From NCBI RefSeq assembly GCF_000027125.1, contig NC_017626.1: 64,000 nucleotides of DNA; one strand, written 5' to 3'. Positions 50,325 to 55,150 of the stretch are shown here, piece by piece; within the stretch, counting starts at the first letter, position 1; each line of letters begins with the position of its first letter. Below the pieces are notes generated by a model, which had not been told where the DNA came from, did no database searches, and saw nothing but the letters and a program-made list of their open reading frames with translations. The translations under genes and the position numbers were made by a program. Source of the DNA: Escherichia coli 042. Lineage in GTDB: Bacteria; Pseudomonadota; Gammaproteobacteria; Enterobacterales; Enterobacteriaceae.

Positions 50325-51575
50325 TTATTCACTTGCCTGAGTCGCTCTTGTCGCATTTGTTTTTAAATTATTCAGCATTTGCTTATCAACCGGTTGCAGT
50401 TGTTGTCCTAACAGAGCCGCAAGCAAAATATTTGTGTCTTCTGTTCTTTCGATTTGAAGCATTTGTAATCTTAAATCAAGTGCCTGCATTCTTGCCTGCT
50501 CATGCGCAGTTTCTTTTTCATCAGCACTACTGATTTTTACCTGCCAAGCGTCAGCACCTGTTGTATCTGCATAGCGTGAATAGATCTCATATCTTAACAT
50601 TTCCCACTCTGAAGGATTATCCGGGAATGTTGTGCCGGGAAATAAGGTCGCATACTTGTTTTTTACGGAAGCATCTGACCAAGCAAGGTTTGCTCCCTGC
50701 GTAGAGCCCAATGTGGATCCTATTTTGGCCCCTCTGGAGTTCACTGATATATTACTTGCTTTTTTCATTGCCAGTACGGAATCAATGGCGTTTGTTCCAG
50801 CAGTGCTTCTGGAGACAAAGCTCGAAAAGGCCGATAAATATTCTCGACCTTCATTTGTGTCTTCTAATCCTTTGTTCTTCAATGGTTCAACGGGCAAGTT
50901 CCCTATAAGATTTCTTTTTGCCGCTTCAGCAACCTCAATCTGCTCAACAGAATAGGACTGATTCGAAACCTTATTAGACAATGCATCGGATTTAGATAAT
51001 GGTGGTGTAATCAGGCTTGATGCCGACTTATCTTTATCAGGATACTGACCTATAGTATTACACCCACCTCTGTTATATTTCACATCATCTTCGGAGCAAA
51101 CATTTATTGATACTCTGCCCATGATGTTTTTCTTGGCCTCATTTATTCTGGTATTTGCTTGTGTAAACATCTTAACGCTGTTTTCAGATAAAGCCTCTTT
51201 AGCTGAGCTTGTATTCGATCCTGCTGCACCACGACCACCTGCGCTCGTGACTTCTTCACAGGCGTTGGCATCAGGTATTCTGTTTAAGATATTTTTCATG
51301 CGCTGTTCTTGGATTGCCTGACTGGCATTACTGACAACCGCATTCTTCTGATTCTCACTGGCTGTTATGGTTGCTTGTGCCAGCTTGTCGTTCATTGAGA
51401 CTAATGTTTCAATTATTCCATTGCCCATAGATTGGGGTGAAGCCCCCATAAGATACGGTGTCAAAACCTCTTCTGTGACGGGCCAGACAGCGAAAGCTGT
51501 ATTTGTATATAATACAGAAAAACACAAAGCTGAAACCACTGTTATTCTCTTTACTTTAAATTTATTATTACTCAT
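50325..51575 (-). CDS. Hypothetical secreted protein (416 aa)
   Basis: N-terminal signal peptide (…TNTAFA); Ser/Asn/Thr-rich; SD aggag before the ATG at 51575. Confidence 0.65.
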   Translation of the reverse strand: MSNNKFKVKRITVVSALCFSVLYTNTAFAVWPVTEEVLTPYLMGASPQSMGNGIIETLVSMNDKLAQATITASENQKNAVVSNASQAIQEQRMKNILNRIPDANACEEVTSAGGRGAAGSNTSSAKEALSENSVKMFTQANTRINEAKKNIMGRVSINVCSEDDVKYNRGGCNTIGQYPDKDKSASSLITPPLSKSDALSNKVSNQSYSVEQIEVAEAAKRNLIGNLPVEPLKNKGLEDTNEGREYLSAFSSFVSRSTAGTNAIDSVLAMKKASNISVNSRGAKIGSTLGSTQGANLAWSDASVKNKYATLFPGTTFPDNPSEWEMLRYEIYSRYADTTGADAWQVKISSADEKETAHEQARMQALDLRLQMLQIERTEDTNILLAALLGQQLQPVDKQMLNNLKTNATRATQASE

Positions 51576-51948
51576 CACAACACTCCTGTTAACTTATTAC
51601 CTTCTTTATTATTTAACCAATTAAATATGAACTGTCAATTTTAACAAAAATATTCATCTGGCATCCAACTTTAAAATTATTATAAAAGAAGCGTATAAAT
51701 CCAACGAAGTAGATTCCATGAACTAGCGTGGTGCTTTTATAGCTTTATCGATGAAGATAGATAGCATGAAATAACTTTACTTTTACGGGAGCATAAAACT
51801 TTATAAAAGTAATGTTTCCATTCAAAAAAGCCGTAGCAATATTTTATTTTAGATGCAGCCATTTCAACTTTGTTTATAAGAAAAAATATAAAGTGAGTTT
51901 CATTGCAGATAATAATCAGTTAGAAAGAGGACCGAAGCCCTCTTAATA

Positions 51949-54609: not shown

Positions 54610-54625
54610 TACATTCCTTTGCCTC

Positions 54626-55150
54626 TTACTTCATTGAATTACTGATGCTGCTCCAGACATCGTTTCCGTTGACTGTTGCTCCCGATCCTGATGAAGAGCC
54701 AGTTCCTGTAGAAACACTTCCATTTGCGATATTCCCAATCACGGGCATATCAATAGAAATGCTTTCGGATATACTTCCGGTCAGTTGACTTACTTTTTCC
54801 CTCGCAATCGAACAGGCTTTACTTATTGCTGCTTCCTTCGTTTTTTTAATTATTGAATCCACAGATGGCAGGCTGATGCCGAGGTTACCCACAGGCCAAG
54901 CGTCCGTACAACCAATCGTCTCAAGTGACTGATTGATGTTATCCATGAAATTCTTCGCTACCGGCTCTAACTGAGCCGCATCCTGCTTCATTGCGTTATA
55001 TTGCGCTTGTTTTAATGATGAGCTGACATCCGGGCTACAGACTGCTGCATTAGCTGTGGTTGCTGAAATTAATATTGTTGCGGGAAGGATTATTTTGAAA
55101 ATGCGGACACAGACATTTGTTCGCCATTTATTTTTATTAAGTTTATTCAT
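54626..55150 (-). CDS. Hypothetical secreted protein (174 aa)
   Basis: Signal peptide (…TTANA), Gly/Ser-rich C-terminus; perfect SD aaggag. Confidence 0.65.
   Translation of the reverse strand: MNKLNKNKWRTNVCVRIFKIILPATILISATTANAAVCSPDVSSSLKQAQYNAMKQDAAQLEPVAKNFMDNINQSLETIGCTDAWPVGNLGISLPSVDSIIKKTKEAAISKACSIAREKVSQLTGSISESISIDMPVIGNIANGSVSTGTGSSSGSGATVNGNDVWSSISNSMK

What the first reader, a model, noticed from the sequence alone, without database searches (positions are those of the whole stretch)
50325..55150. Three-gene envelope module of unknown function centred on an 886-aa polytopic membrane protein
Minus-strand cluster, each gene with a strong SD: a 174-aa secreted protein, 17 bp later an 886-aa protein (signal peptide, a dense C-terminal cluster of predicted TM helices, Gly/Ser-rich tail), then after a 370-bp AT-rich gap a 416-aa secreted Ser/Asn-rich protein. 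I recognise no family motif, and there is no ATPase, secretin or usher nearby, so it is not an obvious pilus, T4SS or T6SS locus. The large protein has a VirB6/TrbL-like feel only at the level of topology. This is my best candidate for an undescribed system (surface structure, exclusion or defence, effector delivery).
Basis: partly seen in the sequence, partly recalled or inferred. Interest (0 to 1): 0.7.

Follow-up and report, generated by a model that had tools for sequence, protein, structure and literature searches.

The report
Orphan DotA–IcmX channel genes on island
The three genes are not an unknown system: they encode the central channel pair (DotA/TraY and IcmX/TraW) of a type IVB conjugation/secretion machine plus a small partner protein. 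They sit alone on a mobilizable E. coli genomic island that has none of the rest of the machine, which suggests the island remodels a helper element's mating channel.

Summary
Three intact minus-strand ORFs (174, 886 and 416/417 aa) sit at the stated coordinates, with Shine-Dalgarno sites, signal peptides and a C-terminal hydrophobic cluster.

The claim of no recognisable family is wrong.
- The 886-aa protein is a DotA/TraY family protein (TIGR04346, 420 bits against a cut-off of 100; it also matches solved Legionella DotA).
- The 174-aa protein has no named family. Its homologs lie immediately upstream of the TraW-like gene in real type IVB clusters.

The genes lie on a ~26-kb low-GC island next to ssrA. 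The island carries an integrase, a MobQ relaxase, TraD and H-NS paralogs, like the ROD21/EARL islands, and no other T4SS gene. The same gene order, with all ORFs intact and dN/dS of about 0.06-0.15, recurs in islands of E. coli, Citrobacter, Pectobacterium and Brenneria.

Best reading, which is inferred and not shown: the island supplies its own matched DotA-IcmX pair to a helper's type IVB machine, as SGI1 does with TraN/H/G. The purpose may be to evade TraY-targeted entry exclusion. I rate it a new variant of a known kind, of moderate interest.

The parts
54626..55150 (-). 174-aa secreted protein with a signal peptide, three invariant Cys (C38, C81, C113) and a Gly/Ser-rich C-terminal part. 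It is a partner of the TraW/IcmX-like protein and has no named family.
   Evidence: ORF and SD. No Pfam, NCBIfam, PHROG, PADLOC or PDB hit. Family alignment A3 with its invariant Cys. The A3 profile hits the gene directly upstream of the TraW-like gene in type IVB clusters L005/L007/L009/L011/L013, E 1e-27 to 1e-74. It is not IncI1 TraV or TraX. dN/dS 0.06-0.15.
51949..54609 (-). 886-aa DotA/TraY family inner-membrane protein: signal peptide, TM1/TM2, a large periplasmic extended domain, a cluster of hydrophobic helices, and a Gln-rich then Gly/Ser-rich cytoplasmic tail.
   Evidence: TIGR04346 E 2e-125, 419.7 bits against a cut-off of 100. Legionella DotA 9ngy_FP1 E 5e-42. IncI1 TraY 22% identity, E 5e-23. 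Topology. RefSeq label. dN/dS 0.06-0.10.
51579..51948 (-). 370-bp AT-rich spacer between dotA/traY and the traW-like gene. It starts with a terminator-like hairpin (AGAGGGC-TTCG-GTCCTCT, about 51925-51944). The same position holds 0.35-5 kb of variable cargo in related islands.
   Evidence: Sequence and GC. My own reading of the hairpin; the terminator scan did not flag it. Cargo at this position in L016, L017, L018 and L020.
50325..51578 (-). 416/417-aa secreted TraW/IcmX-like protein, the periplasmic partner of DotA/TraY.
48111..48581 (+). 156-aa soluble coiled-coil protein, a possible fourth member. Its homolog lies next to dotA in the metagenomic type IVB lineage and is hypervariable together with dotA there.
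   Evidence: 40-45% identity to L014 12669-13145(-) and L015 12745-13245(-). Co-variation with DotA between L015 and L022: both 89% while the flanking genes are 98-100%. No family hit.
35871..37142 (+). Context: P4-like integrase next to ssrA (tmRNA 35384-35746). This is the left end of the ~26-kb low-GC island (about 35.8-61.9 kb).
41205..43860 (.). Context: the island's mobilization genes. Small TraD (41205-41516, -) and MobQ relaxase (42352-43860, +), with an oriT-like two-hairpin 83-nt element between them (41622-41704).

Best explanation
Shown:
- The module encodes a matched DotA/TraY and IcmX/TraW-like pair, the two proteins that form the central pentameric 'protochannel' of type IVB secretion/conjugation machines.
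- It also encodes a small secreted Cys-containing protein that accompanies the IcmX-like gene in genuine type IVB clusters.
- It lies on an integrative mobilizable island (integrase, MobQ relaxase, TraD, oriT-like site) that has no other T4SS gene.

Inferred:
- The island cannot build a machine. When a type IVB (MPF_I-type) conjugative element is present in the same cell, the island-encoded pair is inserted into that element's apparatus in place of the helper's own TraY/TraW.
- DotA and IcmX bind each other through their divergent extended domains, so a swapped DotA has to bring its own IcmX.
- The pay-off would be transfer of the island through a channel the helper's exclusion system does not recognise, because IncI ExcA in recipients targets donor TraY. 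A changed recipient range is a second possible pay-off.
- This is the strategy SGI1 uses with TraN/TraH/TraG against IncC plasmids.
For: Identity.

No other T4SS gene on the island:
- RefSeq annotation of the identical island.
- BLASTP of all island ORFs against IncI1 traT-trbC and five type IVB loci finds only DotA, TraW-like, orf174 and orf156.

The island is a mobilizable element: integrase, MobQ, TraD and an oriT-like hairpin repeat. ROD21-like islands with the same backbone are described as IMEs without a T4SS (PMC6035254, PMC3976249).

Maintained function:
- The order 17x-aa gene, then DotA, then variable cargo, then TraW-like is kept in E. coli, Citrobacter, Pectobacterium and Brenneria islands.
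- All ORFs are intact, with dN/dS 0.06-0.15.

Modular capture of recipient-contacting MPF_I parts:
- A sister island (L020) carries the module plus PilS prepilin and the PilV shufflon adhesin.
- Another (L021) carries a pilin and a prepilin-related gene but no DotA module.

Other small mobile elements carry a lone DotA/TraY:
- 26-37 kb enterobacterial plasmids with no protein longer than 776 aa.
- A ~12-kb Gilliamella island.

Pattern of conservation: the machine-facing parts of DotA (TM1/TM2 and the hydrophobic helices) are 86-92% identical to a metagenomic type IVB lineage, while the extended domain is 33-60% identical.

Literature:
- DotA and IcmX interlock through their extended domains, and assembly needs DotG (PMC12501162).
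- ExcA targets TraY (Sakuma 2013, as cited in PMC11493245 and PMC12282955).
- SGI1 replaces TraG to evade IncC exclusion (Carraro 2017, as cited in PMC11493245).

My own knowledge, not checked here: RSF1010-type MOBQ relaxases can be mobilised by the Legionella Dot/Icm system.
Against: - No helper is identified. The known enterobacterial MPF_I plasmids have TraY only 21-23% identical, and tblastn finds no TraW-like relative in them.
- The closest full systems (58-68% identity) are in an unidentified AT-rich organism, not in Enterobacteriaceae.
- The strain carrying the identical island has only an IncF plasmid; I saw its first 50 kb.
- Published ROD21 transfer was linked to pSLT, an IncF plasmid, and deleting the relaxase did not change transfer (PMC3976249, PMC6035254).
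- No helper-responsive promoter was found.
- No ExcA-like gene is detectable on the island.
- Some copies are interrupted by IS elements (H11 and H15).
Confidence: 0.5

Rival explanations
1. Interference or protection rather than hijacking. The orphan DotA/IcmX variants act as dominant-negative or decoy subunits. They might poison the type IVB machine of a resident or incoming plasmid (fertility inhibition or exclusion). Alternatively they might protect the cell against a neighbour that attacks or conjugates with a related type IVB system and thin pilus.
For: - The islands are rich in defence cargo: PDC-S19 and a type II R-M system here; a retron-type RT, a Cas7fv-like gene and AbiTii in relatives.
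- DotA and its neighbour are locally hypervariable in the metagenomic lineage, 89% against 98-100% for the flanking genes, as expected for a conflict interface.
- The closest relatives are in another organism, and an island pilin gene is 82.6% identical in nucleotides to that organism's pilS.
- IMEs that exert exclusion against helpers are known (PMC11493245).
Against: - Known exclusion factors are small recipient-side membrane proteins or lipoproteins, not copies of the donor channel.
- The same islands carry a relaxase, TraD and an oriT-like site, which argues for transfer.
- Nothing here links the module to a defence phenotype, and there is no PADLOC hit.
Confidence: 0.2
2. Stand-alone envelope function. 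DotA and IcmX alone, with the 174-aa protein, form a membrane or secreted structure used for adhesion, virulence or export, without any T4SS.
For: - Legionella DotA and IcmX are released into culture medium and DotA forms rings (bioRxiv 10.1101/312009).
- ROD21-type islands are associated with virulence (PMC8844411).
- All three proteins have signal peptides.
Against: - Release of DotA and IcmX in Legionella depends on the Dot/Icm machine, and protochannel assembly needs DotG (10.1101/312009; PMC12501162).
- No outer-membrane component is encoded nearby.
Confidence: 0.08
3. Decaying remnant. The genes are leftovers of a once complete integrative conjugative element and have no present function.
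For: - All other type IVB genes are missing.
- Some E. coli copies carry IS insertions.
- The region is AT-rich and probably silenced by H-NS.
Against: - The same three genes, and only these, are intact in six islands from four genera, with dN/dS of about 0.1 at dS up to about 1.
- Cargo turns over around and between them while they persist.
Confidence: 0.07
4. One reading: an undescribed envelope system unrelated to known secretion machines.
For: Pfam-A as installed gives no hit for any of the three proteins. The 174-aa protein has no named family.
Against: Strong NCBIfam, PDB, profile-profile and fold matches to DotA/TraY and TraW/IcmX.
Confidence: 0.02

Closest known systems
Legionella pneumophila DotA-IcmX protochannel of the Dot/Icm type IVB system (PDB 9ngy; PMC12501162)
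   Same: The two-protein composition matches. One is a DotA-family polytopic protein with signal peptide, TM1/TM2, extended periplasmic domain and a hydrophobic helix cluster. The other is a secreted all-helical IcmX-like partner. Sequence match to DotA and fold match to IcmX.
   Different: - Below the curated cut-off of the DotA equivalog model (280 against 500 bits).
- 886 aa against 1048 aa, with a different extended domain.
- The genes are adjacent here.
- None of the other ~25 Dot/Icm genes is present.
- The host is E. coli and the context is a mobilizable island.
IncI1 (R64-type) TraY, TraW and ExcA
   Same: TraY and TraW are the conjugative-plasmid counterparts of DotA and IcmX, and the same families are detected here. 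TraY is the donor-side target of entry exclusion (PMC11493245, PMC12282955).
   Different: - Only 22% identity to TraY.
- Gene order differs (traW-traX-traY-excA against orf174-dotA-gap-traW-like).
- No TraX, TraV or ExcA homolog.
- No other tra, trb or pil genes on this island.
SGI1 TraN_S/TraH_S/TraG_S, an IME that reshapes the IncC mating apparatus (Carraro 2017, as cited in PMC11493245)
   Same: A mobilizable island with its own relaxase that encodes divergent copies of a few helper mating-pair subunits. These include the VirB6-class protein that entry exclusion targets.
   Different: - The machine class differs (MPF_F against MPF_I/type IVB), and so do the proteins.
- The helper, the induction signal and the substitution itself are unknown here. 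The analogy is an inference.
ROD21 / EARL family of enterobacterial genomic islands (PMC6035254, PMC3976249, PMC8844411)
   Same: The backbone is shared: P4-like integrase, MobA/MobQ relaxase, small TraD, full-length and truncated H-NS paralogs, a DUF6387 protein plus an AlpA-like regulator at the far end, and a SEN1982-family lipoprotein.
   Different: - Inserted at ssrA, not at tRNA-Asn.
- It lacks the pilin and pilus genes listed as conserved in EARL islands.
- It carries the DotA/TraW-like module, which those papers do not mention (0 occurrences).

Membership tests
DotA/TraY family (NCBIfam TIGR04346) | Whole-protein HMM score above the curated cut-off | tested here: met
   419.7 bits against a cut-off of 100, E 2.3e-125, residues 43-700 covering model positions 4-656 of 656
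DotA/TraY family (NCBIfam TIGR04346) | Architecture: signal peptide, two N-terminal TM helices, a large extended periplasmic domain, a C-terminal cluster of hydrophobic helices (PMC12501162) | tested here: met
   Hydrophobic segments at 5-28, 64-82, 115-133 and 533-688. Alignment to Legionella DotA over the N-terminal and C-terminal hydrophobic parts.
Legionella-type DotA proper (NCBIfam NF033886 equivalog) | Score above the equivalog cut-off | tested here: not met
   280.5 bits against a cut-off of 500. It is a family member, not an ortholog of Dot/Icm DotA.
Complete type IVB secretion/conjugation system | Co-located ATPases (DotO/TraU, DotB/TraJ), coupling protein (DotL/TrbC) and core complex (DotC/D/F/G/H) | tested here: not met
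   None in the RefSeq annotation of the identical island. BLASTP of island ORFs against IncI1 and five type IVB loci finds only four shared genes. The rest of the host genome was not searched.
TraW/IcmX family (Pfam PF28212 TraW-like; NCBIfam NF033888 conj_TraW) | Pfam PF28212 match | tested here: met
   Precomputed PF28212 hits for homologs at 98% identity and for most of the family. The installed Pfam-A lacks this model, so there is no direct hit.
TraW/IcmX family (Pfam PF28212 TraW-like; NCBIfam NF033888 conj_TraW) | NF033888 equivalog score above the cut-off of 100 | tested here: not met
   No hit for the query even at E up to 10. More distant family members score 26-68 bits. It is a relative, not an IncI1 TraW ortholog.
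TraW/IcmX family (Pfam PF28212 TraW-like; NCBIfam NF033888 conj_TraW) | Profile-level homology to IncI1 TraW and an IcmX-like fold | tested here: met
DotA-IcmX protochannel complex | Pentameric complex of the two proteins on the axis of a type IVB core complex | not testable with these tools
   It needs multimer modelling or cryo-EM. Only gene adjacency and co-conservation are shown here.
ROD21-like (EARL) integrative mobilizable islands | P4-like integrase with an RDF, a MOBQ relaxase and a TraD homolog | tested here: met
   Integrase, MobQ relaxase, TraD and an AlpA-like HTH regulator are annotated. The backbone is shared with the tRNA-Asn islands L020 and L021.
ROD21-like (EARL) integrative mobilizable islands | Integration at a tRNA-Asn gene with the family's direct repeat | tested here: not met
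   The island abuts ssrA. No second copy of the ssrA 3' end exists in the window.
SGI1-type 'mating apparatus reshaping' IME | An IME encodes divergent homologs of a few helper mating-pair subunits, including the exclusion target | tested here: met
   DotA/TraY (exclusion target in IncI, per PMC11493245) and TraW-like sit on an island with MobQ and TraD.
SGI1-type 'mating apparatus reshaping' IME | Helper-induced expression, physical substitution in the helper machine, and evasion of exclusion | not testable with these tools
   No helper is identified. This needs mating assays.

The most novel reading that the evidence does not exclude
ROD21-like islands carry a portable 'recipient-contact cassette': DotA, IcmX, the 174-aa and 156-aa partners, and in sister islands the PilS pilin and PilV adhesin. 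The cassette would have been acquired from the chromosomal type IVB system of an unnamed, AT-rich bacterium known here from contigs of up to ~1.3 Mb. That organism's contigs turn up in metagenome assemblies and inside 'isolate' assemblies labelled E. coli, Shigella and Enterobacter. The islands would use the cassette either to ride on that organism's machine or to blunt it. That would make it a previously unseen conflict or transfer route between Enterobacteriaceae and an uncultured type IVB-armed partner.
Probability: 0.12. Interest if true: 0.8.

Novelty: new variant of a known kind. Interest (0 to 1): 0.45.

Why it matters
Mobilizable islands outnumber self-transmissible elements, but very few are known to edit their helper's transfer machine. 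SGI1 with IncC plasmids is the textbook case. If these widespread enterobacterial islands do the same to type IVB (IncI/K/B/O/L/M-like) systems, by replacing the DotA-IcmX channel that contacts the recipient and is the target of entry exclusion, several things follow:
- a second, independent example of apparatus remodelling;
- a natural set of swappable DotA-IcmX pairs for testing how the protochannel docks into the core complex;
- a possible route by which virulence and defence islands enter cells that already hold, and exclude, the helper plasmid.

The module matches at least 80% of its 6.5-kb region in 71 of 5,426 complete E. coli genomes. Related proteins are reported from Salmonella, Klebsiella, Citrobacter, Pectobacterium, Dickeya and Brenneria.

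Tried and rejected
- Pfam-A (installed version) on all three proteins gave nothing, because the relevant Pfam model PF28212 is newer. This is not evidence of novelty.
- phmmer of the 417-aa protein, and HMM profiles A1 and A2, against PDB sequences did not reach IcmX. Only fold comparison did.
- The first AF2 run, on a shallow alignment, was useless (pLDDT 37.5). The deeper alignment A2 gave pLDDT 84.6.
- The 174-aa protein as IncI1 TraX or TraV: rejected. PDB profile search: nothing.
- PHROGs and PADLOC on the module and its neighbours gave no hits for the module, so no phage or known-defence assignment.
- Search for an ExcA-like gene or any further IncI1 or type IVB homolog on the island: none.
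- Search for an attR copy of the ssrA 3' end: none in the window.
- Attempt to name the AT-rich organism that holds the closest complete systems: cluster look-ups gave only mislabelled or unnamed records.
- Check for a helper in the strain with the identical island: only an IncF plasmid was seen.
- NCBIfam on the small DotA-bearing plasmid's other genes: nothing.
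Full report
**1.

- 54626-55150 (174 aa)
- 51949-54609 (886 aa)
- 50325-51578 (417 aa from GTG; 416 aa from the next-codon ATG that RefSeq uses)

Each is preceded by a Shine-Dalgarno-like site. The first two are 16 bp apart. A 370-bp spacer of 28.6% GC separates the second and third.

All three begin with signal-peptide-like segments. The 886-aa protein has hydrophobic stretches at 64-82 and 115-133, a dense cluster at 533-688, and a Gly/Ser tail.

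They are real genes. Full-length orthologs in six islands give dN/dS of 0.06-0.15 wherever dS is not saturated.

**2. What the proteins are**

*The 886-aa protein* is a DotA/TraY family protein.
- NCBIfam TIGR04346 scores 419.7 bits against a curated cut-off of 100.
- It matches the solved Legionella DotA chain at E 5e-42 over the N-terminal and C-terminal hydrophobic parts.
- It aligns end to end with IncI1 TraY at 22% identity.
- It falls below the cut-off of the Legionella DotA equivalog model (280 against 500 bits). So it is a family member, not an ortholog.

*The 417-aa protein* gave no hit with the installed Pfam or with NCBIfam. Other evidence places it in the TraW/IcmX family.
- Its 98%-identical homologs carry the newer Pfam family PF28212, named 'TraW-like'.
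- A 56-sequence profile (A2), built from hits of the exhaustive representative search, matches IncI1 TraW at 99% hhalign probability and at HMM E 3e-33.

*The 174-aa protein* has no named family.
- It has a signal peptide and three invariant cysteines.
- Its profile finds the gene immediately upstream of the TraW-like gene in five type IVB gene clusters, E 1e-27 to 1e-74.
- It is not IncI1 TraV or TraX.

RefSeq already labels the two larger genes 'DotA/TraY family protein' and 'conjugal transfer protein TraW family protein' in E. coli.

**3. Where the genes sit**

The window is E. coli chromosome. The 50000-56500 stretch is 100% identical to NZ_OZ547150.1.

From about 35.8 to 61.9 kb the GC content drops from about 0.51 to 0.38. 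This stretch is an island that starts just after ssrA. It carries:
- a P4-like integrase
- a PDC-S19 candidate defence gene and a type II methyltransferase
- a small TraD and a MobQ relaxase
- three envelope genes, including a SEN1982-family lipoprotein
- a full-length and a truncated H-NS paralog
- a DUF6387 protein and an AlpA-like regulator at the far end

That backbone is the one described for the ROD21-like 'EARL' islands. Those are regarded as integrative mobilizable elements because they have a relaxase but no T4SS (PMC6035254, PMC3976249). Those papers list pilin and pilus genes, MobA and TraD. They never mention DotA, TraY or an IcmX/TraW protein. My literature searches found no paper that places these genes on islands.

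No other T4SS gene is on this island. The annotation shows none. BLASTP of all island ORFs against the IncI1 traT-trbC segment and five type IVB loci returns only four shared genes: DotA, TraW-like, orf174 and a 156-aa coiled-coil protein at 48111-48581.

**4. Comparative picture**

*Prevalence.* The 6.5-kb region matches 192 of 5,426 complete E. coli genomes, always on the chromosome. In 71 of them the match covers at least 80%. Two copies are interrupted by IS elements.

*Synteny.* The order '17x-aa gene, DotA, gap, TraW-like' is conserved in islands of E. coli (L019, L020), Pectobacterium (L018), Citrobacter koseri (L017) and Brenneria (L016). The gap that is 370 bp here holds 0.35-5 kb of unrelated genes in the others.

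*Sister islands are modular.*
- L020, at tRNA-Asn, has the module plus a prepilin and the PilV shufflon adhesin.
- L021 has a pilin and a prepilin-related gene but no DotA module.

*Other small mobile elements with a lone DotA/TraY.*
- Enterobacterial plasmids of 26-37 kb, typed non-mobilizable, hold the closest plasmid homologs at about 31% identity.
- A ~12-kb Gilliamella island carries one between a tRNA-Arg cluster with an integrase and a RepM-like gene.

*Known MPF_I plasmids* are far away. IncI1 TraY is 22% identical, other plasmid TraY hits are 21-23%, and tblastn finds no TraW-like relative in them.

**5. The closest complete systems**

Proteins 58-68% identical to the island DotA and TraW-like proteins lie on metagenomic contigs of 0.2-1.3 Mb with 30-38% GC; the 174-aa homologs there are 42-45% identical. 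There, type IVB genes (IcmW, DotM, thin-pilus PilO/Q/R/S) are scattered among housekeeping genes such as FtsH, XseA and a ClpB that is 59% identical to E. coli ClpB.

In that lineage:
- the 174-aa homolog directly precedes the TraW-like gene;
- the 156-aa homolog lies next to dotA.

Between two strains whose flanking proteins are 98-100% identical, DotA and that neighbour are both only 89% identical. The DotA differences concentrate in the extended domain and the C-terminal tail.

Against this lineage, the island DotA is 86-92% identical in TM1/TM2 and the hydrophobic helices, but 33-60% identical in the extended domain.

**6. How it most likely works (inference)**

[quoted passage not shown] They interlock over more than 4,000 square angstroms through their extended domains, need DotG to assemble, and rearrange into the trans-envelope conduit on target contact (PMC12501162).

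An island with only these parts cannot build a machine, so the parts must work with someone else's. Keeping the machine-facing helices conserved while carrying a private, mutually fitting pair of extended domains is what one expects of a replacement cassette.

In IncI plasmids the recipient's ExcA recognises donor TraY (Sakuma 2013, as cited in PMC11493245 and PMC12282955). SGI1 escapes IncC exclusion by substituting the VirB6-class TraG with its own copy (Carraro 2017, as cited in PMC11493245).

I therefore favour this reading: the island inserts its DotA-IcmX pair, with the small partner, into a co-resident type IVB apparatus. That would promote its own MobQ-driven transfer and bypass exclusion or change recipient range.

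Confidence is about 0.5, for these reasons:
- No helper is identified.
- The strain with the identical island shows only an IncF plasmid.
- Published ROD21 transfer was linked to an IncF plasmid, and deleting the relaxase did not change it (PMC3976249, PMC6035254).

**7. Rivals**

- *Interference or protection* (0.2). The orphan subunits poison or decoy a related machine. This fits the defence-rich cargo and the hypervariability. It does not fit what is known of exclusion factors.
- *Stand-alone envelope or secreted structure* (0.08). This is unlikely, because release and assembly of DotA and IcmX depend on the machine (10.1101/312009; PMC12501162).
- *Decaying remnant* (0.07). Selective retention and purifying selection contradict this.
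- *A wholly new system* (0.02). The homologies refute this.

**8. Verdict**

Two of the three genes are already named in RefSeq.

What is new is the arrangement. A matched DotA-IcmX pair with one or two small partners is kept alone on mobilizable islands, next to variable cargo, across Enterobacterales. I found no description of this. I rate it a new variant of a known kind, with interest 0.45.

Noticed in passing
L009 14268-15576; L011 14420-15710; L013 14481-15532; L007 20046-20205: The metagenomic contigs that hold the closest complete type IVB systems carry long arrays of 12-16 tRNA genes (Gln, Phe, Asp, His, Cys, Asn, several repeated) just after the DotM-like gene. The assemblies repeatedly break just upstream of the T2SSE gene.
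   Followed up: partly
L014, L015, L022-L024 (ENA ERZ27252479, ERZ27286967 and others): An unnamed AT-rich (30-38% GC) organism or replicon has contigs up to ~1.3 Mb, with two of ~1.299 Mb in different samples. Its type IVB genes are scattered among FtsH, ClpB, XseA and a Suv3-like helicase. Its proteins also appear in NCBI records labelled E. coli, Shigella flexneri and Enterobacter hormaechei. I could not establish its identity.
   Followed up: partly
L015 against L022, genes at 10001-13276: In that lineage dotA and the adjacent 166-aa gene are 89% identical between strains whose flanking proteins are 98-100% identical. This is a local hypervariable pair.
   Followed up: yes
window 41622-41704 and 56950-57032: An 83-nt element with two hairpins (folding z-scores -3.7 and -4.9) occurs twice at 81% identity. 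One copy lies between traD and mobQ and looks like an oriT. The other lies between two winged-helix-like ORFs (55471-56235 and 57693-58391), upstream of the module. It could be a second oriT, an origin or a shared operator.
   Followed up: partly
window 51579-51948; L016 12593-12938; L017 12668-17555; L018 10726-12567; L020 17584-20494: The spacer between dotA and the traW-like gene is a cargo hotspot. It is empty here but holds a 116-aa plus 394/397-aa gene pair in L017 and L018 (with further genes in L017), and other genes in L020.
   Followed up: no
window 37164-40559: The left arm of the island carries a DUF3644 protein matching the PADLOC candidate defence family PDC-S19 (E 3e-68), a type II DNA methyltransferase, and an adjacent 242-aa ORF that may be its endonuclease.
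   Followed up: partly
window 45380-47194 (-): A trio of envelope genes is conserved across ROD21-like islands (L016, L018-L021): a 192-aa lipoprotein, a 184-aa SEN1982-family lipoprotein and a 216-aa polytopic protein. Their function is unknown. An exclusion role is conceivable.
   Followed up: no
window 49098-49505 (+) and about 58423-58662 (-): The island carries a full-length H-NS/StpA-like paralog (181 bits to the H-NS model, below its cut-off) and a truncated H-NS-family gene, as described for ROD21-like islands.
   Followed up: no
L002 (NZ_CP038597.1) and about 30 similar plasmids: Enterobacterial plasmids of 26-37 kb, typed non-mobilizable, carry a lone DotA/TraY gene (~31% identity) followed by a long run of same-strand hypothetical genes. 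They have no detectable TraW-like gene and no protein large enough to be a VirB4/DotO ATPase.
   Followed up: partly
L006 (Gilliamella sp. NZ_WTEY01000001.1) 5900-19400: A small island next to a tRNA-Ser/Arg cluster carries a P4-like integrase (36% identical to this island's), an excisionase-like gene, a lone DotA-like gene (35% identity) and a RepM-like initiator, before serS.
   Followed up: partly
L021 19977-20540 against L007 4527-5090: The pilin gene of a tRNA-Asn ROD21-like island in E. coli F070 is 82.6% identical at nucleotide level to pilS of the AT-rich type IVB lineage. This suggests recent exchange.
   Followed up: no
window 62281-63873 (-): To the right of the island the window has an autotransporter beta-barrel gene. 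The strain with the identical module has glaH at the equivalent position, so the island's right-hand neighbourhood differs between strains.
   Followed up: partly
E. coli hits H11 (NZ_CP127035.1) and H15 (NZ_CP025892.1): In these genomes the matched region is interrupted by IS elements: IS3-family and IS100 in H11, where dotA/traY is annotated in two pieces, and IS100 in H15.
   Followed up: no
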